Positions 29,475-47,147 of a stretch of DNA of 64,000 bases are shown here, piece by piece; positions within the stretch are counted from its first letter, which is position 1; every line of letters begins with the position of its first letter. The notes under the pieces are model-generated. The model ran no database searches. It was not told the origin of the DNA and was given only the letters and a program-made list of their open reading frames with translations. A program made the position numbers and the translations under genes. This DNA is from Candidatus Aminicenantes bacterium (GTDB lineage Bacteria > Acidobacteriota > Aminicenantia > Aminicenantales > Aminicenantaceae). The stretch lies in assembly GCA_016783445.1 (NCBI GenBank), contig JADHWO010000002.1:25464-89463 (forward strand), written 5' to 3'.

Positions 29475-29957
29475 TGTAGGAAAAACGTGACAAACAATTT
29501 TTTCCTGACGTAATACGAGCCAGCCCCAATCTTTAAATATTATTAATAAAGCCAGCCAACCATTTATATCTTTGTACGTCTTTCTCATCAAATTCTCCTA
29601 CGGCTTTACATTGTAATACTAATAACAGGGCCTTGGGTCGTACCCAAAAATAATTATCCGTAAATCAAAGAATAAGCCAAGACTTAAGAGCAAGTAATAA
29701 ATAACCTTCATCGAGTCCGGAATATGCCGGTTTATTTATCTCGTGTAGGACAAATACTGACAGATTTGCGAGTTGTAGTCCTACAAAAAATACAGAGATT
29801 TTCCTATTCAAATGATATGTTTCTTGATTTATTATTATTAGAGATATTCTCTCTGGTCGGCTGGAATATTCCCTCCATTTCCAATTTTTTCCCCCTCCAG
29901 CCGACTTTTCTAGCCATAATTTCTCCTGTCAGATAAAAAGGTAGTACTATCCTTTAT

Positions 29958-30070
29958 TACTTTGCCAAGAACCGGAAATTTTTGCGTGGCACAAAACCGG
30001 AAATTTTCACGTTGCTAAGAACCGGAAGTTTTTACTTTGCCTTGACAAATTACTTAGTACACTTTGACAT
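29958..30070 (+). promoter_or_regulatory. Three direct repeats of AAGAACCGGAAATTTT at 26-bp spacing, followed by TTGACA elements, upstream of the Tat-exported Gfo/Idh/MocA gene
   Basis: The units are aagaaccggaaattttt, aaaaccggaaattttc and aagaaccggaagttttt. ttgaca occurs at 30041 and 30063. Confidence 0.4.
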
Positions 30071-30135: not shown

Positions 30136-31479
30136 ATGTCAAAGAGAAAAAGTGAACTTAGCCGGCGCAAATTTTTGTCTTCTTCTATGGGAGTTGTTCT
30201 GGGTGCAGCCAGCCTTCCACTGCTGAAGAGAGGCTTTTTGTTTGGAAAACCTGCTGGAAGAAAATTAAAAGTTGCTCTTGTCGGAACCGGTGTCCGGGGA
30301 TGCTCTACCTGGGGAAGAACTTTGATAAAAAAATACAGTGATGTACTGGAGATGGTCGGACTTTGTGATATAAATCCAAAGCGTTTGGATTATGCCAAAC
30401 AATATATGGGCGCAACCTGTCCCGTTTATATTGATTTTGTCCGGATGATTAAGGAAACAAAGCCGGATACAGTAGTTGTAACAACTACAGACTGTTTTCA
30501 TGCTAAATACATCTGCCTGGCCATGAAGTTAGGATGCAACGTAATTACCGAGAAACCTATGGCAACAGATGAAAAAATGACTCAGGACATTATTGATATT
30601 GAAAAAAAGACAGGAAAAAAGTTAATTGTGACCTTTAATTACAGATATAGCCCGGAGGCTATAAAAATAAAAGAGATCTTGATGTCGCGGGAAATCGGGG
30701 AAATCACATCTGTGGATTTTAATTATTATCTGGATGTCTACCATGGTGCATCCTATTTCCGCCGCTGGCATGGATTTAAGCAGTTTTCAGGTTCCCTCCT
30801 TGTCCATAAAGCAACACATCATTTTGATCTTATGAACTGGTGGCTTGCGGCCGAACCCGTGGAAGTAAATGCATACGGGGAGCTGCGTAAATATGGATAC
30901 AACGGTTCAATACGGAGTGTCCGGTGCATGACATGCCCCCATAAAGAAACGTGCGAATTCTTCTGGGATATTACCAAAAACGAACACTATATGAATCTGT
31001 ATGTAAAAGCAGAATCCGAGGATGGATATATCCGGGATTCCTGTGTTTTCCGGAAAAAGATCAATATCTGGGATACCATGAACGTCCAGGTTCAGTATCA
31101 CAATCGTGTGACAATGAGTTATTCCTTGAATGCCTTTATGCCTTATGAAGGGTATTTTGTTGGCTTTAATGGAACAAAGGGGAGACTGGATGCCCGTGTC
31201 TATCACAACCAGCCCTGGAAGATTCAGAATATGGCTGATTTCAGGATTACGCATAGTTTTAAAAAGAGCCGGACCTTTGGTATCCGGTCAGGCGGAAGTG
31301 AACACTGGGGTGCTGATCAGGTTATGCAGGATCAAATCTTCCGTAAGCCAGGGCCAGATCCTCTGGGACAGAGGGCTGGAAGCAGGCAAGGGGCGCTTTC
31401 CAATTTGATTGGAATTGCTGGACGCCGCAGTATCGAACAGGAGCGCCCGTTTAAAATAGAAGAGCTGGTCAAGATTTAG
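30136..31479 (+). CDS. Tat-exported Gfo/Idh/MocA-family NAD(P)-dependent oxidoreductase (candidate glycoside 3-dehydrogenase)
   Basis: The Tat motif is SRRKFLSS. The Rossmann segment is VALVGTGVRG. The RBS ggaggg lies before ATG 30136; the ORF track starts earlier, at 30064. Confidence 0.8.
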   Translation: MSKRKSELSRRKFLSSSMGVVLGAASLPLLKRGFLFGKPAGRKLKVALVGTGVRGCSTWGRTLIKKYSDVLEMVGLCDINPKRLDYAKQYMGATCPVYIDFVRMIKETKPDTVVVTTTDCFHAKYICLAMKLGCNVITEKPMATDEKMTQDIIDIEKKTGKKLIVTFNYRYSPEAIKIKEILMSREIGEITSVDFNYYLDVYHGASYFRRWHGFKQFSGSLLVHKATHHFDLMNWWLAAEPVEVNAYGELRKYGYNGSIRSVRCMTCPHKETCEFFWDITKNEHYMNLYVKAESEDGYIRDSCVFRKKINIWDTMNVQVQYHNRVTMSYSLNAFMPYEGYFVGFNGTKGRLDARVYHNQPWKIQNMADFRITHSFKKSRTFGIRSGGSEHWGADQVMQDQIFRKPGPDPLGQRAGSRQGALSNLIGIAGRRSIEQERPFKIEELVKI

Positions 31480-31701
31480 TTGAACCGGGCCACAATAAAT
31501 GACTCTTTTTAAAGATTGAGCCGCCTTTTTTTAGAGAGTTCAAGAGGCCTGTATGCCGGATTGCTGGCCTGCTTGGCTTCGAAATTGTTGAAGATACCTG
31601 ACTGCTCATAATCAGGCTTTTAAGGAGTTTATAATAAAATATGAAAATTTTCGTTAAAAATAATATAATAAGAGGTCTTTTAATATTAATAGGAGAGCAA
31701 G

Positions 31702-32997
31702 ATGGTGTTGAAGAAAAAAGGCCTTGAAGGAAAAAGAATAAGTTGTGATGACTACACTTTAGTAGACTTCCTTGAATTTGAAAGTAACGACCTTTTTGAA
31801 GTGGCTGATTATTTCTGGGAATACATGTTAGATGCAGCAAGAAGAAAATATTTAGTCTACGGTCAACCCATGATGTCTGGCCCAAAAGCTGAATTTAAAG
31901 TTTATGACCGAAACACCAATTCAGTAAGAAAATTTTTAAATTTTTGTTCTTATAACTACCTCGGATATTCTTTTCATCCTGAAGTCGTTAAAGCTGTTCA
32001 GGCAACTATCAACGAATTTGGCACCGGGGCTGTGTCAGCACCACTGCTCAGCGGATATTCTAATCCGGTCAAGAAGTTAGAGGAAGAATTAGCTAAATTA
32101 AAAGGAAAAGAATCAGCAATAGTATTTTCAACAGGATATGTGACAAATTTGGGAATACTATCAGCGCTTTTAAAACCCGGTGATACTGCAGTCTTGGATA
32201 TTCTGTCTCATGCTTCTATATATGACGGGGTAAGGTTATCCGGGGCAGATATAAAAGTTTTTGCGCACAATAATCCTCAGCACCTGGATAAAGTTCTTAA
32301 TGGTTTAAAAACAAAAAGGAATATTGTTTGCGTGGAAGGTGTTTATAGTATGGATGGAGACCTGTCAAATCTTCCTGAAATAATCCCCGTTTGTAAAAAA
32401 CATAAAGCGAAGATATTAGTTGATGAGGCTCATGCCTCATTGGTCTTTGGGAAAAAAGGGGGAGGAGTGGCAGAACATTTTGGCCTTGAAGATGAAGTTG
32501 ATATTTCTATCGGTACGTTCAGTAAATCCTTCGGTGCTATTGGAGGGTATGCTGCAGCCAGTGAAAAGCTTATCGCTTTTTTCAGGTTTTTTACAAGGTC
32601 TTATATTTTTTCATGTGCTATGGCGCCTCACACCGCTGTTGGGATCCTCAAAGTCCTTGAAATTTTCAATAAAGATAAATCCAGAAAGGAAAAACTTTGG
32701 GAAAATACTCATTATATGCATGCCAAGTTAAAAGAAGCAGGGCTTGATATTGGAAGTACAAAATCTCAGGTGGTTCCTGTCATGGCTGGAAATGATTTAA
32801 GGCTGCGTGAAATAAGTAAGAGGATTCAAGAGAAAGGGTTGTACACGGGCGTAGTAACTTATCCAGCTGTATCAAAGAATAAAACCAGGCTGAGGCTATC
32901 AGTTTCTTCGATGCATACTAAAGAACAGATAGATAAATGTATTAGAATACTCGCAGAAGTTTTTGATAGTATGGCTGATTGGAAGCCGGGTCAATAA
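31702..32997 (+). CDS. PLP-dependent alpha-oxoamine synthase, serine palmitoyltransferase-like
   Basis: NFCSYNYLG is present, and the PLP-lysine motif is GTFSKSFGAIGGY. The protein is 431 aa. Confidence 0.8.
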   Translation: MVLKKKGLEGKRISCDDYTLVDFLEFESNDLFEVADYFWEYMLDAARRKYLVYGQPMMSGPKAEFKVYDRNTNSVRKFLNFCSYNYLGYSFHPEVVKAVQATINEFGTGAVSAPLLSGYSNPVKKLEEELAKLKGKESAIVFSTGYVTNLGILSALLKPGDTAVLDILSHASIYDGVRLSGADIKVFAHNNPQHLDKVLNGLKTKRNIVCVEGVYSMDGDLSNLPEIIPVCKKHKAKILVDEAHASLVFGKKGGGVAEHFGLEDEVDISIGTFSKSFGAIGGYAAASEKLIAFFRFFTRSYIFSCAMAPHTAVGILKVLEIFNKDKSRKEKLWENTHYMHAKLKEAGLDIGSTKSQVVPVMAGNDLRLREISKRIQEKGLYTGVVTYPAVSKNKTRLRLSVSSMHTKEQIDKCIRILAEVFDSMADWKPGQ

Positions 32998-33087
32998 AGA
33001 ACTTTTCCAAGAGTACACTGCTTTTTTAGTAAGCTCCGACTTTTAAAGGTTATAAATAAATATCAGCACCCAGGGGGATCTTGCTAT

Positions 33088-34425
33088 TTACTTTATTTTC
33101 ACTTCTTGTTTATTTTCATCAAAGGTTACACGTTTCCCGGTAAACATCGCAGCGATTGTCATGCAGAGAGCTACAGAGTGGTTGTACCCTGCACGGATAT
33201 CCGCGTTTGGCTTCTTGCGTTTGCGCACACACTCCATCCAGTTGCGCATGTGGGCAGAGGTTGCATTATCGGTTCCAGTGATTGCGGCTGTTTCCACTCC
33301 CCCTGCCTCTGCAATAGCTATTTCCGGCAGTCTGTTTTCCTCCATCCCCATAACTTTTGCCATTCTCTGAGATAGCCCACCTTTAGGGGTAATCATATTT
33401 GTGTCCAGATTAAGTGTGCCGCCATTAGAGAAATACAGTTCTTTGGTCCCTCCTGCCGAGTTTGTCTGCCTGGAAGAGTACACAACCTGGAAGCCTTTGG
33501 ACATATCATTGAGTGGACCGTAGTCAAAAACAGCTGTAAGTGTGTCAAAATTTTTCCGTCCATCCTTCCATAGGTAGACCCCACCATTAACTACTACACT
33601 TCTCGGGTGCGGTAAATCTGTAAACCAGTGGACCGTGTCAATCTGATGTACCATCCATTGACCAGGAATTCCGGACGAATACGGCCAGAACAGGCGGTAT
33701 TCGATATATTTGCGTGGATCCCAGGGTTCAAAAGGGCGGTTCATGAGGTACCTTTTCCAGTCAACATCTTTCTCTTGAAGAGCAGCTACCAGGTGAGGGC
33801 GTCGCCACCGGCCAGGCTGGTTTACGTTCCATGTCATATCCACTGCTACAATATCTCCAAATCGTCCTGAGCGGATAAATTTATCAGCCTGAATGTAATT
33901 GGTTGCGCTCCTGCGTTGAGTGCCTATCTGAACAATCCTGTTAGACTTCTGAACAGCTTTGAGCGAAGCGCGCGCATCTTCCCCTGTGTTTGCAAACGGC
34001 TTTTCTACATAAGCATCACAGCCTGCCTCGACAGCCTGGATGCAGTGCAGGGCATGCTGGAAATCCGCTGTGCTTATGATCACAGCATCTACTTTTCCAG
34101 AGCCATAAAGTTCCTCATTGTTACGTTTAGCAACAATTTTCCTTCCTGTTTTTTCCTGAATAAATTCCACTCCCTCCCTACGTCGGCGGTTCCAGATATC
34201 TGAAACAGCCATAATCTCAAAATTGAGCTCCTGAGTATAATTCAGCATAGCCGGAATAAGTGCATGCCGTGCCCGGTCTGAAAAGCCGACGATTCCGACC
34301 CGTACGCGGTCATTGGACCCGAGGATTCGACTGTAACTTGCGGCAGGCAAACCAAACGCGAGCCCGGCTGCCCCTGTAGAAACAGTCTTGATGAAATTAC
34401 GGCGGGTTATCTTTTTTTTCGTCAT
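33088..34425 (-). CDS. Tat-exported Gfo/Idh/MocA-family oxidoreductase
   Basis: The Tat motif is TRRNFIKT. The Rossmann segment is VRVGIVGFSDRA. Confidence 0.85.
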   Translation of the reverse strand: MTKKKITRRNFIKTVSTGAAGLAFGLPAASYSRILGSNDRVRVGIVGFSDRARHALIPAMLNYTQELNFEIMAVSDIWNRRRREGVEFIQEKTGRKIVAKRNNEELYGSGKVDAVIISTADFQHALHCIQAVEAGCDAYVEKPFANTGEDARASLKAVQKSNRIVQIGTQRRSATNYIQADKFIRSGRFGDIVAVDMTWNVNQPGRWRRPHLVAALQEKDVDWKRYLMNRPFEPWDPRKYIEYRLFWPYSSGIPGQWMVHQIDTVHWFTDLPHPRSVVVNGGVYLWKDGRKNFDTLTAVFDYGPLNDMSKGFQVVYSSRQTNSAGGTKELYFSNGGTLNLDTNMITPKGGLSQRMAKVMGMEENRLPEIAIAEAGGVETAAITGTDNATSAHMRNWMECVRKRKKPNADIRAGYNHSVALCMTIAAMFTGKRVTFDENKQEVKIK

Positions 34426-34495
34426 TTTTGCCTTCCTTTTTTAATGGCCATAGGACCTTTATTTTAGCATGCCCTGTGTACAGTGAGAATAAGCT

Positions 34496-35395
34496 TTAAA
34501 AAAGCTTTATTTCACGAATCTTGATGTTGCGAAACCAGGCCGCATCAGTATGGTCCTGTAGAATTATGTGGCCTTTTCGTTTATCTGCAAAGCCCTGAAT
34601 ATTGCGGTATTTACTTGCGGCGAGTAAAACGTCCATTTGAGGCGTTTCCAGGTCGTATTCCAGTACTTTTACTCCGTTGAGCCAGTGTTCTCCATGGTTT
34701 CCACGGAAAATGATTCGTGCTGTGTTAAATTTGCCTACAGGTTTAAGTGTTTTTCCCTCAGGCGCAATTAGGTCATAGAGTGCGGCAGCCGTTCTGTTGC
34801 CGCCTTTCTGTGCATCGGGATGCCTGTCATCATCAAGTATCTGGTATTCAAATCCAAGCGCTGCATACTTGGGTGGATAGGATGTAGACATCTCCTCTGA
34901 AACATTATACTTGATGCCACTGTTTCCGGCAGGGCAAATTTTCCATTCCAGATAGAGTTCGAAGTTCTCAAATGACCTGGCAGTCATGATGTCTCCTCCC
35001 TGAAGAGGTTGCCCGTCTTTTTGCAACGGCACTTCCCCGCTGGGCACCTTTTTGATTGCGCCATCTTCTATGACCCAGGGGCCATCAGGGATTCCGTCCC
35101 TTCCAAGGCCTTGCCATCCGGTGAAGGTTTCACCGTCAAAAAGAAGTATCCAGCCCTCTGCTTTTTCTGATGAGGTGAGTACGTTAAGCTCTAGCGTGGT
35201 TGTGGATAAAGGTTCGGTCTCCTGATTTGATACACAGGATAGAGAGAAAAAGATTAAAATGAGAGAAACAGCTGCAATACACATTAAGTTAAGTCTTAAC
35301 AAAAACATGTTTTTTTTAAGGCAATCTGACATGGCTTGAATTATCCTTTCTGGGTTTTTAAAGTTGCGGCTCAATTTTTTGGGATTGAATCTCAA
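34496..35395 (-). CDS. DUF1080 (3-keto-disaccharide hydrolase-like, LamG/jelly-roll) protein, secreted
   Basis: GWILLFDGETFTGW is present, and the C-terminus FRNIKIREI is typical of PF06439. It sits upstream of the Gfo gene in the same operon. Confidence 0.75.
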   Translation of the reverse strand: MRFNPKKLSRNFKNPERIIQAMSDCLKKNMFLLRLNLMCIAAVSLILIFFSLSCVSNQETEPLSTTTLELNVLTSSEKAEGWILLFDGETFTGWQGLGRDGIPDGPWVIEDGAIKKVPSGEVPLQKDGQPLQGGDIMTARSFENFELYLEWKICPAGNSGIKYNVSEEMSTSYPPKYAALGFEYQILDDDRHPDAQKGGNRTAAALYDLIAPEGKTLKPVGKFNTARIIFRGNHGEHWLNGVKVLEYDLETPQMDVLLAASKYRNIQGFADKRKGHIILQDHTDAAWFRNIKIREIKLF

Positions 35396-35456
35396 TATTT
35401 AAAATATTTTTAAGAAGCATCAATTTATTAATATCAATTTAAAAAGAAAAAGAGGA

Positions 35457-35482
35457 AATGTCAAATGTTGAGATGCGACCCC
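35457..35482 (+). promoter_or_regulatory. Copy of the 26-bp motif AATGTCAAATGTTGAGATGCGACCCC, in the divergent promoter region
   Basis: The same motif recurs at 46000-46028 and inverted at 20508-20535. Confidence 0.4.
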
Positions 35483-35648
35483 ATTCTTCTTTTATCTTTT
35501 TTGCAAAGATGCCTCCAACTTTGTATAGTATGAGCGTTCGGGTTTTTGACTCGTAATCGGTGAGCCTAAGGGACAGAAACTTGTGGGCAGGCTCTACCGC
35601 AAACCTTGGGTTCTCCCCAGGGTGTAAAGCCTTAAAAAGGAGAAGGGC

Positions 35649-36500
35649 ATGGGAAAAACAACAAGAAGGGATTTTATCAGATTAGCTGGAGTGGGAGTGG
35701 CAGCTGTATCATTGTCGCCTGTCCTGGAGGGCTCCACAAAAAGCCGCCATGAAAAAAATGAAAAAGAGCATAAGCGGTTAAAACTTGGAATGGCTTCTTA
35801 CACTTTCCGGAAGTTCAATCTTGAAGATACGTTAGCCATGACAAAAAGGCTGGGATTAGAGACAATTGCTTTTAAGAGCTTCCATCTTGCTCTGGAAAGC
35901 ACTGGGGAAAAGATAAAGGCTGTAGCAGAGAAGGTCAAAGCAGCCGGACTTGAGCTCTACGGCTGCAGTGTGGTTTACATGCAGAATGAGGAGGAAGTTT
36001 ATCGTACGTTTAATTACGCAAAAGCAGCAGGGATGAAGGTCATAATTGGAGTTCCTAACCACGAGCTTCTGGATTTAGTCAACAAGAAGGTTCAGGAGTT
36101 TGATATTCAATTAGCGATTCATAATCATGGCCCTGGTGATAAGCTCTATCCAACACCTGAGAGCGCTTACCAGAAGATTAAAAATCTTGATCCCCGTATA
36201 GGATTGTGTCTTGATATCGGGCATACACAGCGCTCTGGCATCGATCCGTCAGACTCCGCAGAGAAGTTCGCTGATAGGCTGCTCGATGTGCATATCAAGG
36301 ATGTCACCGCTGCATCTAAAGAGGGGAGACCTGTGGAGGTTGGCAGGGGTGTAATCGATATTCCCAAGTTTCTCCGCACTTTGCTCAAGTTGGATTACAA
36401 AGGAATTGTGTCGCTTGAATATGAAAAAGATGCCGATGACCCTCTTCCAGGAGCTGCGGAATCCCTCGGCTATGTCAAAGGTGTCCTGTCTGTTATCTAA
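35649..36500 (+). CDS. Tat-exported xylose-isomerase-like TIM-barrel protein (sugar-phosphate isomerase/epimerase family)
   Basis: The Tat motif is TRRDFIRLAG. An AP-endonuclease-2/TIM-barrel pattern is present. Confidence 0.8.
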   Translation: MGKTTRRDFIRLAGVGVAAVSLSPVLEGSTKSRHEKNEKEHKRLKLGMASYTFRKFNLEDTLAMTKRLGLETIAFKSFHLALESTGEKIKAVAEKVKAAGLELYGCSVVYMQNEEEVYRTFNYAKAAGMKVIIGVPNHELLDLVNKKVQEFDIQLAIHNHGPGDKLYPTPESAYQKIKNLDPRIGLCLDIGHTQRSGIDPSDSAEKFADRLLDVHIKDVTAASKEGRPVEVGRGVIDIPKFLRTLLKLDYKGIVSLEYEKDADDPLPGAAESLGYVKGVLSVI

Positions 36501-36521
36501 ATATACACTTTAAACTAGCGT

Positions 36522-36758
36522 GCATTATTCATAAAAACTGCCGATGCCATCATTCATTCTTTATAATATCTATATCAATCATCGGCATTTTTTACTCTTC
36601 GAGCGAGCCGATATTGTGAGATTGCCGCGTCGCTTCGCTCCTCGCAACGACGTCTGCTTCGTTGCAAAGGATTTGCGGTGGAGAACCACAGCTTCATCCT
36701 TCACGCCTCGCATCTACGGCAACCTCGACTCGTGAATAATGCACGTACGCGTGAATTG
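36522..36758 (-). repeat. Copy B (inverted) of the roughly 250-bp structured repeat. Its internal hairpin plus T-run is placed as a terminator for the upstream gene.
   Basis: The reverse complement aligns to 13583-13834 and 47160-47425. aaaaactgccgatg...catcggcatttttt lies directly after the stop at 36500. Confidence 0.7.
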
Positions 36759-36829: not shown

Positions 36830-37651
36830 ATGAAACAAAAAAATCTTCTTAGTATACTTTTATTTCTTTTAATAGCCCAATGCTATGTGGCTGTTGGCCA
36901 ATTCACTCCTGCTGAAATTGCTCAAAGGGAAAAGCTGGAGGAATTCCTCAAAACCGCAGAAATCATAAAATCAGAAGATATAGGAGAGGGAGTTACAAAA
37001 CCAATAAAGCTTACACTAAAGAAGGGAGATGTGGAAAGATATGGAGCATGGAAAAATCCCAAAGGCATTAAATCGGGCCAGCTTGAGGGCTGGCAGTATG
37101 AAATAGCTGCTTATGAGATGGATAAGCTTTTAGGATTAAACATGGTCCCACCCACAGTCGAGAGAGAGCTCCACGGATTGAGAGGGTCCCTTCAGCTCTG
37201 GGTCGAGTCTCAATTAAGCGATCTGGAACTAAGAGAAAAAGGAATGAGTATTCCTGATTCTGAGCTTTTACAGTGGTCAAAAATGAAGTATTTAGCAAGA
37301 GCATTTGACAGTTTAATTGCCAACGACGACCGGACCCAGCAGAATGTACGCTATACTAAGGATTGGCGGACGATTCTCATCGACCATTCCCGTTCTTTCC
37401 GCTCCTCCGGGAAGTTCATGAAGAGACTTGTTTTTGGAAAAAAAGGTATAAAGGGTGTCACGCTTATCAGGTACGTGCCCAGGGCTTTTATAGAAAAGGT
37501 TAAAGCCTTGAACTTTGATACCATAAGGAATGCTGTAGGTCCTTATTTGAAGGACAAAGAGATTGAAGCTGTTCTCAAGCGTAAAGAGCTTCTCCTTAAA
37601 GAGATCGAAGAAATGATAAAAGAATATGGAGAAAAAAAGGTTTTGTATTAA
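36830..37651 (+). CDS. Secreted protein with an atypical-kinase-like catalytic motif (HipA / PI3K / Fam20-like)
   Basis: There is a signal peptide. The sequences AFDSLIANDDRTQQNVRY and ILIDHSRSF resemble a kinase catalytic loop and metal-binding loop. Confidence 0.4.
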   Translation: MKQKNLLSILLFLLIAQCYVAVGQFTPAEIAQREKLEEFLKTAEIIKSEDIGEGVTKPIKLTLKKGDVERYGAWKNPKGIKSGQLEGWQYEIAAYEMDKLLGLNMVPPTVERELHGLRGSLQLWVESQLSDLELREKGMSIPDSELLQWSKMKYLARAFDSLIANDDRTQQNVRYTKDWRTILIDHSRSFRSSGKFMKRLVFGKKGIKGVTLIRYVPRAFIEKVKALNFDTIRNAVGPYLKDKEIEAVLKRKELLLKEIEEMIKEYGEKKVLY

Positions 37652-37681
37652 TGCTTCTTTATGTCTTTTTGGCTTTTTTTA

Positions 37682-39817
37682 TTACTTTTCTTTTAGGCTT
37701 TCAATAATTTTCTTAATTTTTTCTTGTTTTGGATTAATCTCTAACGATTTCTTCCAGGCTTGTAAAGCCTGCTTATTATCTCCAAGCGCAAAATAGCATT
37801 CTCCAATTGAATTCAGGATCTCTACAACATTGCCCTTATGTGAAAGAGCTTTCTGATAATAAGAGACTGCCTCTTCAAGCTTGCCCAATTCATGAGATGT
37901 TTTTCCGAGATTGTAATAGAGCTCAAAATTCTCTTTTCCTGCTTTATCAAAAGGGATTAGGATTTCTCTTACTCTCTGGAATTCTTTCAAGATCAAGAGA
38001 GCTCTCGCGTAGCTTAAAGCGTAATCCAATGAATCCGGCTTTCCTTTATAGGCTTTCGATAATTCTTCTTGGGCTTTTTGTATGTCTCCCTTGTTCAGAA
38101 ATTGATTCCCCAGGATATAAGAATAGTACGGATCATCAGCAGGTGGATTGGTCTGAGCGACAACCCATGATCCGGGAAAAGGTTTTGTTGTGACAGAGAG
38201 TGCTTTTCTTTCAGAAAGATATTTTCGCCCCTCTCTGTCGAGGAGGGAAACCTCCACTGTGTATATTCCAGGTGAAAATTTATCCAGGAGGATTTCTTCG
38301 AGAAAATCGCGGCTGTTTTTGTATTCATTGATGTTCCTGTGTTTCGTCTGAAATATCTGCTCACCCGAATAAAACGTAAATTCCAGTATTCCCTCTTCTT
38401 TCAATCTCTGCTTTAAACCATAGATCTGAAAGAAAAGGAACAAATTGTCTTTTTCAAGGAATTTGTTATTGATGGATGGATAGAGCTGAAGATTCCCCAC
38501 CTGAAAGGCTCTGTTTGACTGACTGTATGGTGAATCTCTGTTGACTTTCCTGGATAAGATGACAGGGCTCATCTTTAGATTTTCACCCCTGGGCACAGAG
38601 ATCTTTTTTTCGAAAGAGGTAAATTCTTTGGTGACCATGTTTTCAAATAAGAGGTTGAAGGTGTAATTGCCCGGGATCATAGGGAAAGAATCATAGAGAA
38701 AAAAAGAACTAGTCTCCAATATTTTCAACTCATCCTTTCTTAATTCAAGCGGAACATTCCTTCCCCGTTGAAATATGGTCTTCCCCTCTGCATCTGTCAA
38801 ACGGATGGAAGTTTTTAAATCAGAAAAATATTTATCCTGGTAGAAATCGACAGATAAAGTTTCCGGCACAATGATGTAATTCACAAAGAAAATGCCGGAG
38901 GGATCCTGGATAATGCTAACCTTCGACTGGTTCCCCATGTAATAAACGGAATAACTGACTTCAACTACCGCTTTATGCTCTAAAAACTCATAAGCGTAGT
39001 CATCATTGACTTTCTTATGAGGATAGGTTTCAACTTCACCCACTAACATCGAAGACTGGAGTATTTGTTCCGGGCCGCTTCTTCCTGGGAAGTTTGAAAA
39101 TACAGCCTCAGCCAACATGAACCCAATACTGGATTTTATTATCATGTAAGCATCTATATCTCTTTTGTCTAAATTATAAGCCTTTAATCTTTGTAATTCT
39201 TCTGCGTCCTGTGGGGATCTTTCCGCCAGAGGCGATATCGATTTTGCTTTAGAAAGCACGTCCAATCTCTGAGTGAAAGGGACTAAACTTTTTGGCCCAT
39301 CTGCAAGCGGATTATAAAGTTCAAACTCTCCCGCTCCAAATTTCTGAAAGAACAGGAGTCGAAAGTTTGGTGCCTGCCCCAGTCCCGGATTGCCCTGGTA
39401 ATACCAGATTTCTATAGGGTAAATGTCTGCTGATATGTATCTATCCACATTGGAAGGCCTGCCCAGCATTATGTAAAATCTTCCTCTATCCGTTCTCCAG
39501 CCCTTTAAGGGTGTACTTCTTCCGAATTTTTTATCCGTATATTCAATCCTTCTGTAGTGTTCTTCTTTGAATTCATTCCGGGATGTGGTTGGAGTGGGAT
39601 CTCTTTGCCGCCAGAATTCTTCAATAAAAAGATTCCTTTCTCTATCCGTTTCCAGCTTGTAAAAAACCTCCTTTTCCTTAGGGGTAATGATGTAGACGAC
39701 TTCTTCTTTTATCCATTTCTGGAATTTTTTAGGTAAATCGGGATTTTTCTTTGAATAGAGTATAAAGGGAAAGATAAATACAAATAATAATATCGCGCTG
39801 GTAATTTTTAATTTCAT
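37682..39817 (-). CDS. GWxTD-domain protein with C-terminal TPR repeats, secreted
   Basis: KGWRTDRGRFYIMLG contains the GWxTD motif. There is a signal peptide after the internal Met (MKLKITSAILLF). TPR repeats are at the C-terminus. Confidence 0.7.
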   Translation of the reverse strand: MKLKITSAILLFVFIFPFILYSKKNPDLPKKFQKWIKEEVVYIITPKEKEVFYKLETDRERNLFIEEFWRQRDPTPTTSRNEFKEEHYRRIEYTDKKFGRSTPLKGWRTDRGRFYIMLGRPSNVDRYISADIYPIEIWYYQGNPGLGQAPNFRLLFFQKFGAGEFELYNPLADGPKSLVPFTQRLDVLSKAKSISPLAERSPQDAEELQRLKAYNLDKRDIDAYMIIKSSIGFMLAEAVFSNFPGRSGPEQILQSSMLVGEVETYPHKKVNDDYAYEFLEHKAVVEVSYSVYYMGNQSKVSIIQDPSGIFFVNYIIVPETLSVDFYQDKYFSDLKTSIRLTDAEGKTIFQRGRNVPLELRKDELKILETSSFFLYDSFPMIPGNYTFNLLFENMVTKEFTSFEKKISVPRGENLKMSPVILSRKVNRDSPYSQSNRAFQVGNLQLYPSINNKFLEKDNLFLFFQIYGLKQRLKEEGILEFTFYSGEQIFQTKHRNINEYKNSRDFLEEILLDKFSPGIYTVEVSLLDREGRKYLSERKALSVTTKPFPGSWVVAQTNPPADDPYYSYILGNQFLNKGDIQKAQEELSKAYKGKPDSLDYALSYARALLILKEFQRVREILIPFDKAGKENFELYYNLGKTSHELGKLEEAVSYYQKALSHKGNVVEILNSIGECYFALGDNKQALQAWKKSLEINPKQEKIKKIIESLKEK

Positions 39818-39876
39818 TTTTCTTTTTTTGTCTCTTACATTAATCATTAACAGAAAAATAGAATGAGAAGTCATTT

Positions 39877-41049
39877 TTAAAATTTAAATCTTATTCCTGA
39901 GCGAAAGCTGAAGCCACTGAAATCAAAAACGCCTTTTCTTATAATTTTATAACCGGATGGTTCTTCTTCAAGTATGGTCAAATAAGGATAGTTATCATCT
40001 TCCAGATAATAAAGCACTCCTTCTTCTACTGAATCAACATATCTCCATACATCCCACACTCTATCTGTTTCCTTCCCTTTGAAGTTGGAAACCTTGGCAT
40101 ATCTCCCCCGGCCTTCGATAAAAAAGATAGCTCTATGGGTTAATTTGATTTCAAAGCTGATCCCCCCGTGAAATCCGAGACCTTTGGCACTTGTTTTGTG
40201 ATAAATGCTATTCAGATTCGTCCAGTCCTTATCAAGGGTAAGGGAATACTTAGTCAGATAGAGTGCTGCTCCACAATTAAAGGAGACAGCAAATAAGCGA
40301 TGAATGGGAAGGGAAAAATACAATCCAAGTCTGATAGGAACAGCAGTTATTTTGGGCGTACTACGCAATTGTTCTAGCCCTAATAAGCCCGCTCCTGACA
40401 CAGTTAGAGTATTTGTTTCAGACGCGCTAATGTAACCTGCTCCTAGTCCAATTCCAATTTGAGGGGTGAAGTTAAAAATGATATCTCCTGAGATATCAAC
40501 TGCATTGTGGAAGGATTCTGTCTTGCTTTCCAGGGAGTAGCCTGCGGAAGAGAGAAAATCAGCATTTGAATCATACAAACCTTCGGTCCCTTTAGTTATG
40601 TCCCCACCAAAAAAATAATTCAGGCCTCCACTGAGCTTAACGCTCAATCCTATACCCTGGAAAAATTCAGGTTCTTCTTCCCAAAAATCCGGTTCTTTAG
40701 TAGTCTTTTCCTTTATTATGTCCACAGCGTTTGAGTGAATGTAGCCTATAAGCACAAACCCTTCCTTGTCAGGTCCTATGATCACCCGGAACCACTCTCC
40801 TGCCTTTTCATATGATTTTAGAATCGTTCCTTTCAAGGCGCTGGTTACGACCGGACTTTTTATATCGGGCTCCAGTCGAATATCTGCCTTCTCAACCTTG
40901 ATTTTTAGCTCCCATTCAGAAGAGCTCGAATTTAATGCATAAATATTGAGCGTTAAAAGACATACTACTAATAAAATTAGAAAGGGGTTTATTCTGCTTA
41001 TTTTAGTACTCCTATATACTATATTATCTCTAAAATAATTATTGTGCAA
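39877..41049 (-). CDS. Secreted protein with an N-terminal SH3b-like domain and a probable C-terminal outer-membrane beta-barrel
   Basis: There is a signal peptide, amphipathic beta strands and a C-terminal ...IRFKF. Confidence 0.45.
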   Translation of the reverse strand: MHNNYFRDNIVYRSTKISRINPFLILLVVCLLTLNIYALNSSSSEWELKIKVEKADIRLEPDIKSPVVTSALKGTILKSYEKAGEWFRVIIGPDKEGFVLIGYIHSNAVDIIKEKTTKEPDFWEEEPEFFQGIGLSVKLSGGLNYFFGGDITKGTEGLYDSNADFLSSAGYSLESKTESFHNAVDISGDIIFNFTPQIGIGLGAGYISASETNTLTVSGAGLLGLEQLRSTPKITAVPIRLGLYFSLPIHRLFAVSFNCGAALYLTKYSLTLDKDWTNLNSIYHKTSAKGLGFHGGISFEIKLTHRAIFFIEGRGRYAKVSNFKGKETDRVWDVWRYVDSVEEGVLYYLEDDNYPYLTILEEEPSGYKIIRKGVFDFSGFSFRSGIRFKF

Positions 41050-44100: not shown

Positions 44101-44549
44101 CTTTTGTCCTTGAGAAATATTCTTAGGGGTTTAACGGATTCGTTTTTACCGACAAGTTGAAGCTGACGGATTAAAAATGCTTTTACCTCACTATCTTTTT
44201 GTGACTCCAGAGCTTTCAAAAGAGTTCTGGCATAGATTCCTCGTTCCTGTTCAGCCCCAGCTCGGTGGGCATATACAGATAGTGCATTCAGTGCGAATCG
44301 GACCCTGGTGTCATCACCTGTTCCCGGCGGAACCAGCATGCGGCAAACCTCCTGAATTCCTTCCTGACCAAGTTGAATGAGTTCAGAGGCTAACTTATCT
44401 CTTTCAGCAGTGTTTTGAGCGGGAAATTTGGCAAGTGTATCAACAACTTTTGTCTTTGAAGTTCTTACATCTTCCTGTCCGATCACCAAAGATGAGGCTA
44501 ACAGCAATGCTGTTATCAAAATAAGTATTGTTTTTTTCTTGTTTTTCAT
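41160..44549 (-). CDS. Large secreted protein with N-terminal HEAT/ARM repeats and two C-terminal DUF1080 (3-keto-glycoside hydrolase-like) domains
   Basis: There is a signal peptide after the internal Met (MKNKKKTILIL). Two DUF1080 ends are present, YFRNIFIREI and EFRNIRIKEIK. No CxxCH motif is present. Confidence 0.7.
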   Translation of the reverse strand: MKNKKKTILILITALLLASSLVIGQEDVRTSKTKVVDTLAKFPAQNTAERDKLASELIQLGQEGIQEVCRMLVPPGTGDDTRVRFALNALSVYAHRAGAEQERGIYARTLLKALESQKDSEVKAFLIRQLQLVGKNESVKPLRIFLKDKRLCEPATQALLAIRTPEAEKALLKSLRSVSETNRITIIKALGEFRSKAAVKKITRYVSSRNEKLRHVTLYALANIGDPKSEKVLDSISVASSSYERSKAPSLYLLYAQRLAESGKKQQCARICRNLIKNYTSPHESNVPCLALSILVNAIGERAFGDLLSSMENPNKELRSRAIELAGTFQGEYATAQWIKKMTEVPTETQAEIITMLGYRKNISALPTLLQALKSEEKIIRLAAIPALAHLGGSDVLPELFTSLHTDQADEINTTKQVLKRFPSSEVVPGVVEILEEMPPLAQVALIEILSERLAKEHVDTVFTQINSDHESVRLAALAGLENLASETDLPHLIKILLEAQNSTEISLAQNAVVASANLIIDPEKRADLILETLEETTDTKRIDLLRPLAKIGGKNALQTVIEETKTEDPIIQDAAVSTLAEWPDISAVEELFNIYSTTKKQEHRLFAIQGYVRLVIESELTPERRLSILKEALDIAAETEEKNHILKGLGSVKILNSLRLVAAYLGDQDLQAQAAITVAEIALPQPGTARGLFGAEVISVLKKSVGLIEDSYEQERIEKYISAILEQGGFVSLFNGKDLSGWKGLVGDPISRTKMTPEELTKAQEEADLSMREHWKVVDGILVFDGKGESLCTLKDYTDFEMLVDWKIEKGGDSGIYLRGSPQVQIWDPEQWPEGSGGLYNNKEGPSKPLKCVDNPIGEWNTFRIKMTGEKVTVYLNDVLMVDNVVMENYWEQDKPIYPTGQIELQSHNSPLYFRNIFIREIIPEKGAQGLTEQETAEGFELLFNGKDLTGWTGETTGYVAEDGKIVIYPKRGSGNLYTEKEYSDYILRFEFKLTSGANNGLGIRAPLTGDAAYVGMELQILDNTAHIYKDLEPYQYHGSIYGIVPAKRGYLRPVGEWNYEEVIARGRKIIVNLNGVTIVDANIDKASTPTTLDGKDHPGLKREKGHIGFLGHGSHVEFRNIRIKEIK

Positions 44550-44577
44550 TTGAATATCTCCATGTAAAAAAGCTGCC

Positions 44578-45999: not shown

Positions 46000-46028
46000 T
46001 AATGTCAAATGTTGAGACGCGACCCCTT
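46000..46028 (+). promoter_or_regulatory. Copy of the 26-bp motif GTAATGTCAAATGTTGAGACGCGACCCC, in the divergent promoter region
   Basis: It lies between the Gfo gene (-, start 45855) and the GHMP kinase gene (+, start 46149). Confidence 0.4.
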
Positions 46029-47144: not shown

Positions 47145-47147
47145 GCT

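What the first reader, a model, noticed from the sequence alone, without database searches (positions are those of the whole stretch)
30136..36500. Block 1 of a periplasmic 3-keto-glycoside-type catabolic gene set (Tat-Gfo/Idh/MocA, DUF1080, TIM barrel)
Two Tat-exported Gfo/Idh/MocA oxidoreductases (30136-31479 and 33088-34425), a DUF1080 protein (34496-35395) and a Tat-exported xylose-isomerase-like TIM-barrel protein (35649-36500) lie together. From established knowledge, periplasmic Gfo/Idh/MocA enzymes oxidise glycosides at C3. DUF1080 proteins have been characterised as 3-keto-disaccharide hydrolases. Xylose-isomerase-like TIM barrels act on 3-keto sugars, or as C-glycoside deglycosidases in DgpA/DgpBC-type systems. 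The substrate of this set is unknown.
Basis: partly seen in the sequence, partly recalled or inferred. Interest (0 to 1): 0.5.

Follow-up and report, generated by a model that had tools for sequence, protein, structure and literature searches.

The report
Periplasmic sugar-cleaving genes linked to glucuronate uptake
The four exported enzymes are real and belong to a gene set conserved in Aminicenantes bacteria that also holds an acid-sugar importer and a plant-type glucuronic acid kinase, so the set most likely frees glucuronic acid from larger sugars outside the cell membrane, imports it and phosphorylates it.

Summary
Two Tat-signal Gfo/Idh/MocA oxidoreductases, a DUF1080 protein and a Tat-signal xylose-isomerase-like TIM barrel lie at the stated coordinates.
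- The genes are on both strands, in three transcription units.
- A BioF/Kbl-like gene (31702-32997) sits between the two Gfo genes.
- DUF1080 is a lipoprotein.

The window comes from a Candidatus Aminicenantes genome. Across 29 related species loci the conserved unit is larger: Gfo2-DUF1080 lies divergent from TIM-GHMP kinase-TRAP transporter.

The kinase is 44% identical (E 3e-89) to plant glucuronokinase 1. The TRAP binding protein's best solved relatives all bind glucuronate or galacturonate. DUF1080 keeps all eight active-site residues of BT2157, the 3-keto-glycoside lyase/hydratase. The Gfo and TIM proteins are only distant relatives of BT2158 and BT2156.

Best reading (about 0.5): a redox-neutral periplasmic 3-keto route cleaves glucuronides, then glucuronate is imported by TRAP and phosphorylated at C1. 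This is a new variant of a kind known since 2020-2024. No activity has been measured.

The parts
29954..30040 (+). Three direct repeats with a 25-nt period (core AACCGGAARTTTT), 100-180 nt upstream of Gfo1. A possible regulator site; whether it belongs to the system is uncertain.
   Evidence: family D1. Not found upstream of Gfo1 orthologues in 10 relatives.
30136..31479 (+). Gfo1: a Tat-signal Gfo/Idh/MocA oxidoreductase and candidate glycoside or glucuronide 3-dehydrogenase. It is the loosest member of the set.
   Evidence: Pfam. The SRRKFL motif is kept in 7/7 orthologues. Best solved relatives are sugar C3 or inositol C2 dehydrogenases, including P2B11 glucuronide 3-dehydrogenase 8tdi at E 9e-13; the NAD Asn, a Tyr and the catalytic His are kept. 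Present in 8/17 loci with enough upstream DNA.
31702..32997 (+). BioF/Kbl-like PLP alpha-oxoamine synthase. A lineage-specific gene lying between Gfo1 and Gfo2, probably not part of the system.
   Evidence: PF00155 2.7e-54. It falls below every NCBIfam equivalog cut-off. It occupies this position only in the closest clade (L005, L008, L011, L086) and is absent there in L001 and L002.
33088..34425 (-). Gfo2: a Tat-signal Gfo/Idh/MocA oxidoreductase in an operon with DUF1080. Candidate glycoside 3-dehydrogenase with tightly bound NAD.
   Evidence: TAT_signal. The TRRxF motif is kept in 20/20 orthologues. It is 75-99% identical across many Aminicenantes. hhalign against BT2158 gives probability 98.2% over residues 4-262; Q170, K142 and H260 are kept, and BT2158 D248 corresponds to Q256.
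34496..35332 (-). DUF1080 (PF06439) lipoprotein. Candidate 3-keto-glycoside 1,2-lyase and 2-hydroxy-3-keto-glycal hydratase. The start is uncertain (35308, 35332 or 35395).
   Evidence: PF06439 5.3e-47. 37.5% identity to BT2157 over 285 aa. All eight BT2157 active-site residues are kept: D98, N129, E154, Q156, Y178, K233, Q251, H253, counted from Met 35308. Most orthologues carry a lipobox Cys.
35458..35482 (+). Conserved 25-nt motif ATGTCAAATGTTGAGAYGCGACCCC in the divergent DUF1080/TIM promoter region. A second copy lies at 46002-46026.
   Evidence: Zero matches expected by chance. Kept in the same intergenic region of L005, L007, L008, L011 and L088/L089. Overlaps the best promoter-like match on the minus strand.
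35649..36500 (+). Tat-signal xylose-isomerase-like TIM barrel metalloenzyme. Candidate 3-keto-glycoside lyase; its exact reaction is the least certain step.
   Evidence: PF01261 3.6e-23 and TAT_signal. Closest structure is 3lmz (E 1.4e-72), of unknown function. 60-77% identical across Aminicenantes, KSB1, Calditrichota and Phycisphaerae. The metal-ligand pattern H160/D189/H215/E257-E259 aligns with BT2156, but BT2156 substrate contacts His184 and Trp217 are Pro162 and His192 here.
36519..36756 (+). MITE-like repeat, copy A, directly after the TIM stop codon.
   Evidence: It has 13-nt terminal inverted repeats. Further copies lie at 13574-13831 and 47145-47426.
36830..41049 (.). Three genes inside the stretch that separates TIM from the kinase in this lineage: a secreted 273-aa protein (+), a GWxTD/TPR protein (-) and an SH3/OMP-like protein (-). 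Probably unrelated passengers.
   Evidence: Absent from this position in most relatives. Present in L086 and L087.
41160..44597 (-). The domains are divergent.
   Evidence: PF06439 2.5e-91 with two stretches, and PF13646. Its domains keep only 3-5 of the 8 BT2157 residues.
44578..45855 (-). Third Tat-signal Gfo/Idh/MocA oxidoreductase (GfoC2). It is the closest relative of BT2158 in the window.
   Evidence: PF19051 2.1e-146. BT_2158_fam 163 bits against a cut-off of 750. 29% identity to BT2158 over 298 aa. TRRDFI motif.
46002..46026 (+). Second copy of the 25-nt motif, in the divergent GfoC2/kinase intergenic region.
   Evidence: also present in L086 and L087.
46149..47144 (+). Cytoplasmic GHMP kinase; probable glucuronokinase (GlcA to GlcA-1-phosphate).
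   Evidence: PF00288 and PF08544. 44% identity over 321 aa, E 3e-89, to glucuronokinase 1 of Ziziphus jujuba. Its N-terminal GVFGNPSDGYFGK matches the Lilium glucuronokinase peptide VGFLGNPSDVYFGR (PMC2823444). It lies directly after the TIM orthologue in 18/25 related loci.
47145..47426 (-). MITE-like repeat, copy B. It fills the kinase/DctP gap, which is 0-1 nt in most relatives.
47426..50263 (+). TRAP transporter DctP (47426-48424), DctQ (48421-48945) and DctM (48962-50263). Probable hexuronate importer.
   Evidence: The ten best solved relatives of DctP (E 7e-72 to 5e-56) include 4x8r, 4n8y, 4n91 and 4mhf, which bind glucuronate or galacturonate. The Arg/Arg/Asn ligand triad is kept.

Best explanation
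The four genes are the periplasmic half of a gene set conserved in Aminicenantes. The set scavenges glucuronic acid from glycosides.

**Proposed sequence of events**
1. A Tat-exported Gfo/Idh/MocA enzyme (Gfo2, perhaps also Gfo1) carries tightly bound NAD. It oxidises the C3 hydroxyl of a terminal sugar, most likely a glucuronosyl residue.
2. The 3-keto group makes H2 acidic. The DUF1080 lipoprotein and the Tat-exported TIM-barrel metalloenzyme then remove the aglycone by 1,2-elimination, possibly one enzyme for each anomer.
3. DUF1080 hydrates the resulting 2-hydroxy-3-keto-glycal.
4. The reduced Gfo enzyme gives its hydride back to the 3-keto sugar. The net reaction is a redox-neutral hydrolysis, and no free NAD is needed in the periplasm.
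5. The TRAP transporter imports the free glucuronate.
6. The GHMP kinase phosphorylates it to glucuronate-1-phosphate.

**Shown by computation:** the gene content, the export signals, the conserved gene order, the active-site conservation in DUF1080, and the family identity of the kinase and the binding protein.

**Inferred:** every catalytic step, the identity of the glycoside, the division of labour between Gfo1 and Gfo2 and between TIM and DUF1080, and the fate of glucuronate-1-phosphate (UDP-glucuronate salvage or catabolism).
For: **Anatomy and export.**

**Conserved gene order.** Relatives show [DctM<DctQ<DctP<kinase<TIM] divergent from [DUF1080>Gfo2>]. Counts across species-representative loci:
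- kinase directly after TIM: 18/25
- kinase anywhere in the locus: 21/25
- DctP: 13/20
- DUF1080: 20/27
- Gfo2: 19/24

In L006 and L013 the kinase instead sits in the Gfo2-DUF1080 operon. This is an independent arrangement with the same partners.

**Known mechanism of the kind.** In BT2156-2160 and AL1-5, oxidation, elimination and hydration were assigned to a Tat-Gfo, a TIM barrel and a DUF1080 lipoprotein. The NAD is tightly bound and is recycled by 3-keto sugar. A related cluster (P2B11) cleaves alpha- and beta-glucuronides.

**Active sites.**
- DUF1080 keeps 8/8 BT2157 residues.
- Gfo2 against BT2158 gives hhalign probability 98% with the catalytic His kept.
- Gfo1's solved relatives include glucuronide 3-dehydrogenase 8tdi and the 3q2i/3q2k dehydrogenases. 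From my own knowledge, the latter are WlbA-type UDP-GlcNAcA 3-dehydrogenases.

**Sugar identity.**
- DctP's best solved relatives bind glucuronate or galacturonate, and the Arg/Arg/Asn triad is kept.
- The kinase is 44% identical to plant glucuronokinase 1 (E 3e-89). It also matches the C-terminal half of many 620-680-aa proteins, the architecture of the zebrafish pyrophosphorylase-glucuronokinase fusion.
- Characterised glucuronokinases accept only glucuronate (PMC2823444, PMC3938481).

**Context in a relative.** In L011 a GH78 rhamnosidase, a sulfatase and a BNR protein lie between TIM and the kinase. This fits a rhamnose- and glucuronate-containing sulfated glycan.

**Possible co-regulation.** A shared 25-nt motif lies in both divergent promoter regions.
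Against: - No enzyme activity, ligand binding or expression has been measured.
- Gfo1, Gfo2 and TIM are far from the characterised proteins: 25-29% identity, N-terminal or partial alignments only, and NCBIfam equivalog scores ten-fold below cut-off. The C-terminal substrate-binding part of Gfo2 (about 185 aa) aligns to nothing characterised.
- TIM's metal ligands are common to the whole xylose-isomerase-like superfamily. Two BT2156 substrate contacts are replaced.
- The link from the periplasmic enzymes to glucuronate rests on gene order only. In this very genome the kinase and transporter are 9.6 kb away.
- Seven of 25 related loci lack the adjacent kinase. The TIM orthologues of Planctomycetota pair with a different Gfo and no kinase.
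- No pyrophosphorylase or uronate-catabolic gene is in the window, so the fate of glucuronate-1-phosphate is open.
- A binding protein with roughly 40-45% identity to hexuronate binders could prefer a related acid sugar.
Confidence: 0.5

Rival explanations
1. The same 3-keto cleavage chemistry acts on neutral glycosides (glucosides, disaccharides, thio- or pseudo-glycosides), as in Bacteroides. The glucuronate transporter and kinase are merely neighbours with a separate role.
For: The characterised BT and AL systems act mainly on glucosides and mannosides. DUF1080 is closest to BT2157-type proteins. In this window the kinase and TRAP genes are 9.6 kb from TIM. TIM orthologues in 51 other loci lack the kinase.
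Against: TIM, kinase and TRAP form a tight co-directional operon with gaps of 0-20 nt in most Aminicenantes. The kinase joins the Gfo2-DUF1080 operon in L006 and L013. No transporter or kinase for a neutral sugar is conserved next to the set.
Confidence: 0.2
2. Gfo1 and Gfo2 are self-contained NAD-dependent glycosidases of the GH109, GH4 or GH188 type. They would oxidise, eliminate, hydrate and reduce in one active site. DUF1080 would act as a conventional endo-glycanase or binding module, and TIM as an isomerase.
For: GH109 enzymes share the Gfo fold; a GH109 structure (6t2b) is among Gfo1's hits at E 1.5e-11. From my own knowledge they also carry Tat signals. NAD-dependent sulfoquinovosidase-type entries (8qc2, 8qc3) also appear. 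A DUF1080 protein (THTE_1561) is reported as an endo-xanthanase/lichenase (PMC9007349).
Against: The matches to GH109 and 8qc entries cover only the Rossmann domain and are no better than matches to plain dehydrogenases. DUF1080 keeps all eight lyase/hydratase residues of BT2157. The persistent pairing of a Tat-Gfo with TIM and DUF1080 across phyla suggests divided labour.
Confidence: 0.1
3. The periplasmic enzymes do not cleave glycosides. Instead they interconvert free acid sugars through keto intermediates (for example another uronate or a keto-uronate into glucuronate). The product is then imported and phosphorylated.
For: Gfo enzymes with bound cofactor can run oxidation and reduction cycles, and TIM barrels of this superfamily include isomerases and epimerases (weak NCBIfam hits to epimerases and isomerases). 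The tightest linkage is TIM-kinase-TRAP.
Against: DUF1080 with an intact BT2157-type site has no role in such a scheme. No precedent was found in the papers read. In L011 glycan-degrading enzymes are inserted in the locus.
Confidence: 0.07
4. This is a periplasmic inositol-type pathway, with an IolG-like dehydrogenase and an IolE-like dehydratase.
For: The best NCBIfam names are iolG for Gfo1 (80.7 bits) and iolE for TIM (44 bits). JGI labels some TIM orthologues 'inosose dehydratase'.
Against: Both scores are far below the cut-offs of 355 and 290. Tat export and a DUF1080 lipoprotein do not fit the cytoplasmic Iol pathway. No IolD, IolB or IolC is nearby.
Confidence: 0.03
5. The genes are functionally unrelated members of large paralogous families that happen to lie together.
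For: Gfo, DUF1080 and TIM families are expanded in several phyla (10.1101/179903). The genes here are on both strands, with unrelated genes among them.
Against: The same orthologues stay together in 19-20 of 24-27 species despite rearrangements. A conserved 25-nt motif is shared by the promoter regions.
Confidence: 0.05

Closest known systems
BT2156-BT2160 of Bacteroides thetaiotaomicron and AL1-AL5 of Alistipes: stepwise oxidative glycoside cleavage (Liou et al. 2020, cited from my own knowledge; Liu et al. 2021; Nasseri et al. 2024, bioRxiv 10.1101/2024.03.25.586180)
   Same: The three protein kinds and the compartment logic match: a Tat-exported Gfo/Idh/MocA, a DUF1080 lipoprotein and a signal-bearing xylose-isomerase-like TIM barrel. 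DUF1080 is 37.5% identical to BT2157 and keeps 8/8 active-site residues. Gfo2 keeps the Gln, Lys and His of BT2158.
   Different: - Gfo1, Gfo2 and TIM are not orthologues (25-29% identity, partial alignments).
- Both Gfo proteins are exported, and there is no cytosolic BT2159 equivalent.
- No DUF6377 regulator is present.
- TIM uses a Tat signal rather than a Sec signal.
- The genes lie in three or more transcription units.
- The set is linked to a TRAP transporter and a glucuronokinase, which the Bacteroides and Alistipes loci, as described, lack (L085).
P2B11 cluster (unknown Gram-positive gut bacterium): glucuronide 3-dehydrogenase plus two TIM 'isomerases' (Nasseri et al. 2024; PDB 8tdi)
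   Same: It uses 3-keto chemistry on alpha- and beta-glucuronides. Gfo1 matches 8tdi at E 9e-13 and keeps the NAD Asn, a Tyr and the catalytic His.
   Different: P2B11 has two TIM proteins and no DUF1080, and it has no nearby transporter. Here there is one TIM plus DUF1080, all exported. Similarity to 8tdi covers residues 75-243 only.
Plant and animal glucuronokinase (EC 2.7.1.43; Arabidopsis GlcAK, zebrafish DrGKUP)
   Same: 44% identity over 321 aa (E 3e-89) to a plant glucuronokinase 1. The N-terminal GNPSDxYFG motif is shared.
   Different: In eukaryotes the enzyme serves the myo-inositol oxygenase or salvage route to UDP-glucuronate, and in animals it is fused to a pyrophosphorylase. Here it stands alone in an operon with a periplasmic enzyme and a TRAP importer. 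Other bacterial homologues sit next to an NTP-transferase (L090 and a JGI contig), which this locus lacks.
Hexuronate-binding TRAP binding proteins (4x8r, 4n8y, 4n91, 4mhf; STM3169)
   Same: These are DctP's best solved relatives (E 7e-72 to 5e-56), and the Arg/Arg/Asn ligand triad is kept.
   Different: The Asn-Gln pair of the glucuronate-specific Apre_1383 and STM3169 is Gly-Leu here. The characterised transporters sit with UxuAB/UxaC catabolic genes (PMC7660916), not with a GHMP kinase.
PDB 3lmz (listed as 'Putative sugar isomerase'; from my own knowledge a Parabacteroides distasonis protein with no assigned function)
   Same: It is the closest solved relative of TIM (E 1.4e-72, residues 43-280).
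   Different: No function is known, so it does not help to assign the reaction.

Membership tests
BT2156-2160 / AL1-5 oxidative glycoside-cleavage system | Tat-exported Gfo/Idh/MocA glycoside 3-dehydrogenase orthologous to BT2158/AL3 | tested here: not met
   Tat-Gfo proteins are present. However, NCBIfam BT_2158_fam gives 43.5 bits (Gfo1), 67.2 bits (Gfo2) and 162.9 bits (GfoC2) against a cut-off of 750. BLASTP identity is 25-29% over the N-terminal 200-300 residues.
BT2156-2160 / AL1-5 oxidative glycoside-cleavage system | Catalytic residues of the dehydrogenase: Gln161, Arg192, Trp195, Asp248, His252 (plus Tyr349, not examined here) | tested here: inconclusive
   By hhalign, Gfo2 has Q170 for Gln161 and H260 for His252. 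Asp248 corresponds to Q256. Arg192 and Trp195 do not align, although an invariant WNVNQPGRWRRP lies there. The C-terminal domain is not aligned.
BT2156-2160 / AL1-5 oxidative glycoside-cleavage system | DUF1080 lipoprotein with the BT2157 active site (E103, N134, E164, Q166, Y190, K245, Q273, H275) | tested here: met
   D98, N129, E154, Q156, Y178, K233, Q251 and H253 are present; the Glu-to-Asp change is within the reported variation. Most orthologues carry a lipobox Cys.
BT2156-2160 / AL1-5 oxidative glycoside-cleavage system | Signal-bearing TIM-barrel 3-keto-beta-glycoside 1,2-lyase of the BT2156/AL1 type | tested here: inconclusive
   The metal ligands and the Glu pair align (H160, D189, H215, E257/E259). 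Substrate contacts His184 and Trp217 are Pro162 and His192. hhalign probability is 68.5% with 25% identity over 172 columns.
BT2156-2160 / AL1-5 oxidative glycoside-cleavage system | Second, cytosolic Gfo (BT2159/AL4) and a DUF6377 regulator (BT2160/AL5) in one operon | tested here: not met
   All three Gfo proteins in the window carry Tat motifs. No DUF6377 appeared in Pfam scans of all ORFs of 150 aa or more. The genes lie on both strands.
BT2156-2160 / AL1-5 oxidative glycoside-cleavage system | Stepwise oxidation, elimination and hydration shown with purified enzymes | not testable with these tools
   This needs enzyme assays and NMR.
Glucuronokinase (EC 2.7.1.43) | GHMP fold with full-length similarity to characterised plant or animal glucuronokinases | tested here: met
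   PF00288 and PF08544. 44% identity over 321 aa, E 3e-89, to glucuronokinase 1 of Ziziphus jujuba. The peptide motif matches Lilium GlcAK.
Glucuronokinase (EC 2.7.1.43) | ATP-dependent phosphorylation of D-glucuronate at C1, selective for glucuronate | not testable with these tools
   This needs a kinase assay.
Hexuronate-binding TRAP solute-binding proteins | Closest relatives are glucuronate or galacturonate binders, with the Arg/Arg/Asn ligand triad | tested here: met
   Ligands of 4x8r, 4n8y, 4n91 and 4mhf come from PMC11668362 and PMC7660916.
GH109 NAD-dependent glycosidases | Full-length similarity to GH109, including the C-terminal catalytic domain | tested here: not met
   6t2b matches Gfo1 only over residues 38-191 (E 1.5e-11). 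It does not appear among Gfo2's hits.
DgpA/DgpBC C-glycoside deglycosidase systems | DgpA-type oxidase plus a two-subunit TIM-barrel C-C lyase | tested here: not met
   DgpA matches cover the Rossmann domain only. TIM has no hit to a C-glycoside deglycosidase at E<0.01. No beta-subunit gene is present.
Iol myo-inositol pathway | IolG and IolE equivalogs | tested here: not met
   TIGR04380 gives 80.7 bits against 355. TIGR04379 gives 44 bits against 290.

The most novel reading that the evidence does not exclude
A bacterial glucuronate scavenging route that has not been described and is widespread in Aminicenantes. Tat-exported NAD enzymes, a DUF1080 lipoprotein and a TIM-barrel enzyme remove glucuronosyl residues in the periplasm by a redox-neutral 3-keto mechanism. 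A TRAP transporter imports the glucuronate. A plant-type glucuronokinase, not characterised in bacteria in the papers searched, converts it to glucuronate-1-phosphate. That product would go to UDP-glucuronate salvage or to a new catabolic entry that bypasses the usual isomerase (UxaC) and dehydrogenase (Udh) routes.
Probability: 0.35. Interest if true: 0.65.

Novelty: new variant of a known kind. Interest (0 to 1): 0.5.

Why it matters
**Breadth of the chemistry.** Oxidative, non-Koshland glycoside cleavage was worked out only in 2020-2024, in gut Bacteroidota. If this set works as proposed, the chemistry extends to an uncultured, sediment-dwelling phylum and to different enzyme subfamilies.

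**A testable substrate.** The proposal points to glucuronides as the substrate class. Many natural glucuronides resist ordinary glycosidases, for example methylated or sulfated glycans and rhamno-glucuronans.

**The kinase.** It gives a physiological context to bacterial homologues of plant glucuronokinase, whose role in bacteria is unknown. That role could be salvage of an abundant environmental acid sugar into the nucleotide-sugar pool, or a new catabolic entry point.

**Practical targets.** The conserved TIM family (60-77% identity across several phyla, structure 3lmz with no assigned function) and the kinase are easy targets for expression and assay.

Tried and rejected
- **AlphaFold2 model of Gfo2.** Built from 18 orthologues, it was poor (mean pLDDT 55.7, C-terminal domain below 50). 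I ran no fold search, because matches to such a model would be meaningless.
- **Rfam.** A scan of 27-52 kb found nothing at E<=0.1, so there is no known riboswitch or leader.
- **Inversion between the MITE copies.** I considered that the two inverted 230-280-nt repeats at 36.5 and 47.1-47.4 kb mark an inversion or a composite transposon. I rejected this. They are copies of a MITE-like element with its own 13-nt terminal repeats, present elsewhere in the window and in relatives. The kinase also keeps its ancestral orientation next to DctP.
- **Repeats upstream of Gfo1.** I looked for the AACCGGAA repeats upstream of Gfo1 orthologues in ten relatives and found none.
- **Mevalonate kinase or heptose kinase.** I considered these identities for the GHMP kinase. 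The scores are far below cut-off (63 against 163, and 38 against 600), and the match to glucuronokinase is much stronger.
- **Literature.** A search for a GHMP kinase together with a TRAP transporter and glucuronate found no paper. A search on Aminicenantes carbohydrate metabolism found nothing about this locus.
- **PDB codes.** Searches for 3lmz and 4jqt found no functional study.

Full report
**1. The observation**

| Gene | Coordinates | Pfam evidence | Signal |
|---|---|---|---|
| Gfo1 | 30136-31479 (+) | PF01408 9.5e-17, PF02894 9.8e-16 | Tat motif SRRKFL |
| Gfo2 | 33088-34425 (-) | PF01408 6.2e-14 | Tat motif TRRNFI, NCBIfam TAT_signal |
| DUF1080 | 34496-35395 (-) | PF06439 5.3e-47 | lipoprotein signal |
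| TIM | 35649-36500 (+) | PF01261 3.6e-23 | Tat motif TRRDFI, NCBIfam TAT_signal |

(Pfam and NCBIfam results.)

- The twin-arginine motifs are kept in 7/7 Gfo1, 20/20 Gfo2 and 16/16 TIM orthologues.
- DUF1080 probably starts at Met 35332 or 35308. That gives a lipoprotein signal (…FFSLSC), which most of 25 orthologues share.

**2. Source and true extent**

Gfo2 and TIM have hundreds of homologues at 70-100% identity, labelled Candidatus Aminicenantes or Acidobacteriota. One NCBI MAG protein is identical to TIM.

In relatives the arrangement is [DctM<DctQ<DctP<GHMP kinase<TIM] divergent from [DUF1080>Gfo2>], often with Gfo1 convergent.

I fetched 80 species-representative loci around TIM orthologues and scored their ORFs against the window's proteins. 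Twenty-nine are of this type. Among those with enough flanking DNA:

| Feature | Loci |
|---|---|
| Kinase directly downstream of TIM | 18/25 |
| Kinase anywhere in the locus | 21/25 |
| DctP present | 13/20 |
| DUF1080 divergent from TIM | 20/27 |
| Gfo2 present | 19/24 |
| Gfo1 present | 8/17 |

- In L006 and L013 the kinase sits in the Gfo2-DUF1080 operon instead. The arrangement differs but the partners are the same.
- In the other 51 loci (Planctomycetota, KSB1 and others) the TIM orthologue, still 59-68% identical, usually lies next to a different Tat-Gfo (19/36).

In the window the kinase (46149-47144) and the TRAP genes (47426-50263) lie 9.6 kb downstream of TIM. The gap holds:
- a secreted 273-aa protein;
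- a GWxTD/TPR protein;
- an SH3/OMP-like protein;
- a 1145-aa protein with HEAT repeats and two DUF1080 domains;

Two independent assemblies show the same layout (L086, L087), so it is real and specific to this lineage. The BioF-like gene is also confined to the closest clade (L005, L008, L011, L086).

**3. The kinase and the transporter point to glucuronate**

*DctP.* Its ten best solved relatives score E 7e-72 to 5e-56. Published ligands are glucuronate for 4x8r, galacturonate for 4n8y, glucuronate for 4n91, and both for 4mhf (PMC11668362, PMC7660916). The Arg/Arg/Asn triad that holds the ligand is kept, in the motifs GSRSFY, MKVRTQES and GAENN.

*The GHMP kinase.*
- It scores far below cut-off for mevalonate and heptose kinases.
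- Its N-terminus GVFGNPSDGYFGK resembles the Lilium glucuronokinase peptide VGFLGNPSDVYFGR (PMC2823444).
- An exhaustive search of 1.84 billion representatives gave 454 hits at E<=1e-30. Many are 620-680 aa long and match only in their C-terminal half. That is the architecture of the zebrafish pyrophosphorylase-glucuronokinase fusion (PMC3938481).
- One 366-aa hit is 'glucuronokinase 1 [Ziziphus jujuba]'. BLASTP gives 44% identity over 321 aa, E 3e-89.
- Characterised glucuronokinases accept only glucuronate.
- Two of four more distant bacterial homologues that I looked up are followed by an NTP-transferase gene. One lies next to Wzy_C, with a glycosyltransferase gene further along the contig. 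This suggests a salvage role in bacteria.

**4. The periplasmic enzymes compared with the characterised system**

The mechanism of BT2156-2160 and AL1-5 is published:
- a Tat-Gfo with tightly bound NAD oxidises C3;
- a TIM barrel eliminates beta-glycosides;
- a DUF1080 lipoprotein eliminates alpha-glycosides and hydrates the glycal;
- the 3-keto sugar re-oxidises the enzyme;
- a related cluster (P2B11) does this with glucuronides.

I recovered a B. thetaiotaomicron-type locus (L085) by searching with the BT2157 sequence read from a PDB alignment. I then compared the proteins directly.

| Window protein | Reference | Result |
|---|---|---|
| DUF1080 | BT2157 | 37.5% identity over 285 aa; all eight conserved active-site residues present |
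| Gfo2 | BT2158 | hhalign probability 98.2%, residues 4-262; keeps the NAD-contacting Gln, the EKP Lys and the catalytic His; Asp248 is Gln; last 185 residues do not align |
| Gfo1 | 8tdi (glucuronide 3-dehydrogenase) | E 9e-13; also matches the 3q2i/3q2k dehydrogenases (WlbA-type UDP-GlcNAcA 3-dehydrogenases, from my own knowledge); keeps the NAD Asn, a Tyr and the catalytic His |
| TIM | BT2156 | remote: 25-28% identity, hhalign probability 68.5%; metal ligands and Glu pair align, but two substrate contacts differ |

TIM's close structural relative 3lmz has no known function. NCBIfam equivalog scores for BT_2158_fam are ten-fold below cut-off.

The set therefore resembles the known system in protein kinds, compartment and one intact active site. 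It is not an orthologous copy.

**5. Supporting context**

In L011 the stretch between TIM and the kinase carries a GH78 alpha-L-rhamnosidase, a sulfatase and a BNR-repeat protein. This fits a sulfated glycan containing rhamnose and glucuronate. It is only a hint.

A 25-nt motif (ATGTCAAATGTTGAGAYGCGACCCC) occurs in the DUF1080/TIM intergenic region and again in the GfoC2/kinase intergenic region. None is expected by chance. The motif is kept in the DUF1080/TIM region of several relatives and overlaps the best promoter-like match for DUF1080-Gfo2. It may tie the two halves to one regulator. A third copy at 20508 does not fit that idea.

**6. Best explanation and rivals**

I put about 0.5 on a periplasmic, redox-neutral 3-keto cleavage of glucuronides, coupled to TRAP import and glucuronokinase.

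Rivals:
- the same chemistry on neutral glycosides, with the transporter and kinase unrelated (0.2);
- self-contained GH109-like glycosidases (0.1);
- interconversion of free uronates (0.07);
- chance co-location (0.05);
- an inositol-type pathway (0.03).

All catalytic steps are inferred. The weakest points are:
- TIM's reaction;
- the roles of Gfo1 and Gfo2;
- the link from gene order to the substrate;
- the fate of glucuronate-1-phosphate.

**7. Novelty and verdict**

The protein kinds and the chemistry are known, so this is not categorically new. The new elements are:
- the phylum;
- the divergent enzyme subfamilies;
- export of both dehydrogenases;
- the conserved coupling to a hexuronate-type TRAP transporter and a plant-type glucuronokinase.

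I found no paper describing that coupling. I rate it a new variant of a known kind, with interest 0.5. The main addition is a concrete, testable substrate prediction.

Noticed in passing
window 13574-13831 (-), 36519-36756 (+), 47145-47426 (-); also L018 4010-4319, L043 9689-9820, L008 9594-9875: A MITE-like element of 230-280 nt with 13-nt terminal inverted repeats (CGTGCATTATTCA…TGAATAATGCACG). There are at least three copies in the window and related copies in other Aminicenantes genomes. One copy fills the kinase/DctP gap, which is 0-1 nt in most relatives.
   Followed up: partly
window 35458-35482 (+), 46002-46026 (+), 20508-20532 (-): A 25-nt motif, ATGTCAAATGTTGAGAYGCGACCCC, with none expected by chance. 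It is conserved in the DUF1080/TIM intergenic region of relatives L005 (two inverted copies), L007, L008, L011 and L088/L089. It may be a shared promoter or operator element. The copy at 20508 lies between convergent genes and is unexplained.
   Followed up: partly
window 29954-30040: Three direct repeats with a 25-nt period and core AACCGGAARTTTT, just upstream of Gfo1. They are not found upstream of Gfo1 orthologues in ten relatives.
   Followed up: partly
window 31702-32997 (+): A BioF/Kbl/serine-palmitoyltransferase-like alpha-oxoamine synthase that scores below every NCBIfam equivalog cut-off (best: bioF, 352 against 426). It sits between Gfo1 and Gfo2 only in the closest clade. Its substrate is unknown.
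   Followed up: partly
L011 10916-18686: In one relative, the stretch between the TIM orthologue and the glucuronokinase homologue holds a GH78 alpha-L-rhamnosidase, a sulfatase and a BNR/Sortilin-repeat protein. The TIM/kinase junction has therefore been opened at least twice, with different cargo.
   Followed up: partly
L090 3539-5462; JGI 3300042731 contig (no DNA held): More distant bacterial homologues of the kinase (51% and 41% identity) are each followed directly by an NTP-transferase gene. This mirrors the fused pyrophosphorylase-glucuronokinase of lower animals.
   Followed up: partly
window 53679-56003 (+): A 774-aa protein that fuses a cyclic-nucleotide-binding domain, an acetate kinase and a PduL-type phosphotransacylase (PF00027, PF00871, PF06130). 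This would be an unusual single-chain acetyl-phosphate module under possible nucleotide control.
   Followed up: no
window 18119-18152, 20582-20617, 36616-36651, 57617-57648: A GC-rich element of about 35 nt (GAGATTGCCGCGTCGCTTCGCTCCTCGCAACGAC) repeated in intergenic regions and nested inside MITE copy A. It is also seen in L008, L036, L041 and L062.
   Followed up: no
window 27960-29474: An AT-rich stretch (GC about 0.35) upstream of Gfo1. It holds a winged-helix HTH_34 protein (27960-28301) and a small pair of overlapping ORFs; the first is MazE/AbrB-like in the matching locus L086. This looks like a toxin-antitoxin module.
   Followed up: no
window 423-12909: Three AcrB-type RND pumps and a membrane-fusion protein, with an IS-type DDE transposase (3631-5115) inserted after the first pump gene.
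   Followed up: no
window 41160-44597 (-): The two DUF1080 domains of the 1145-aa HEAT-repeat protein keep only 3-5 of the 8 BT2157 active-site residues. They may bind rather than cleave, or they may act on something else.
   Followed up: partly
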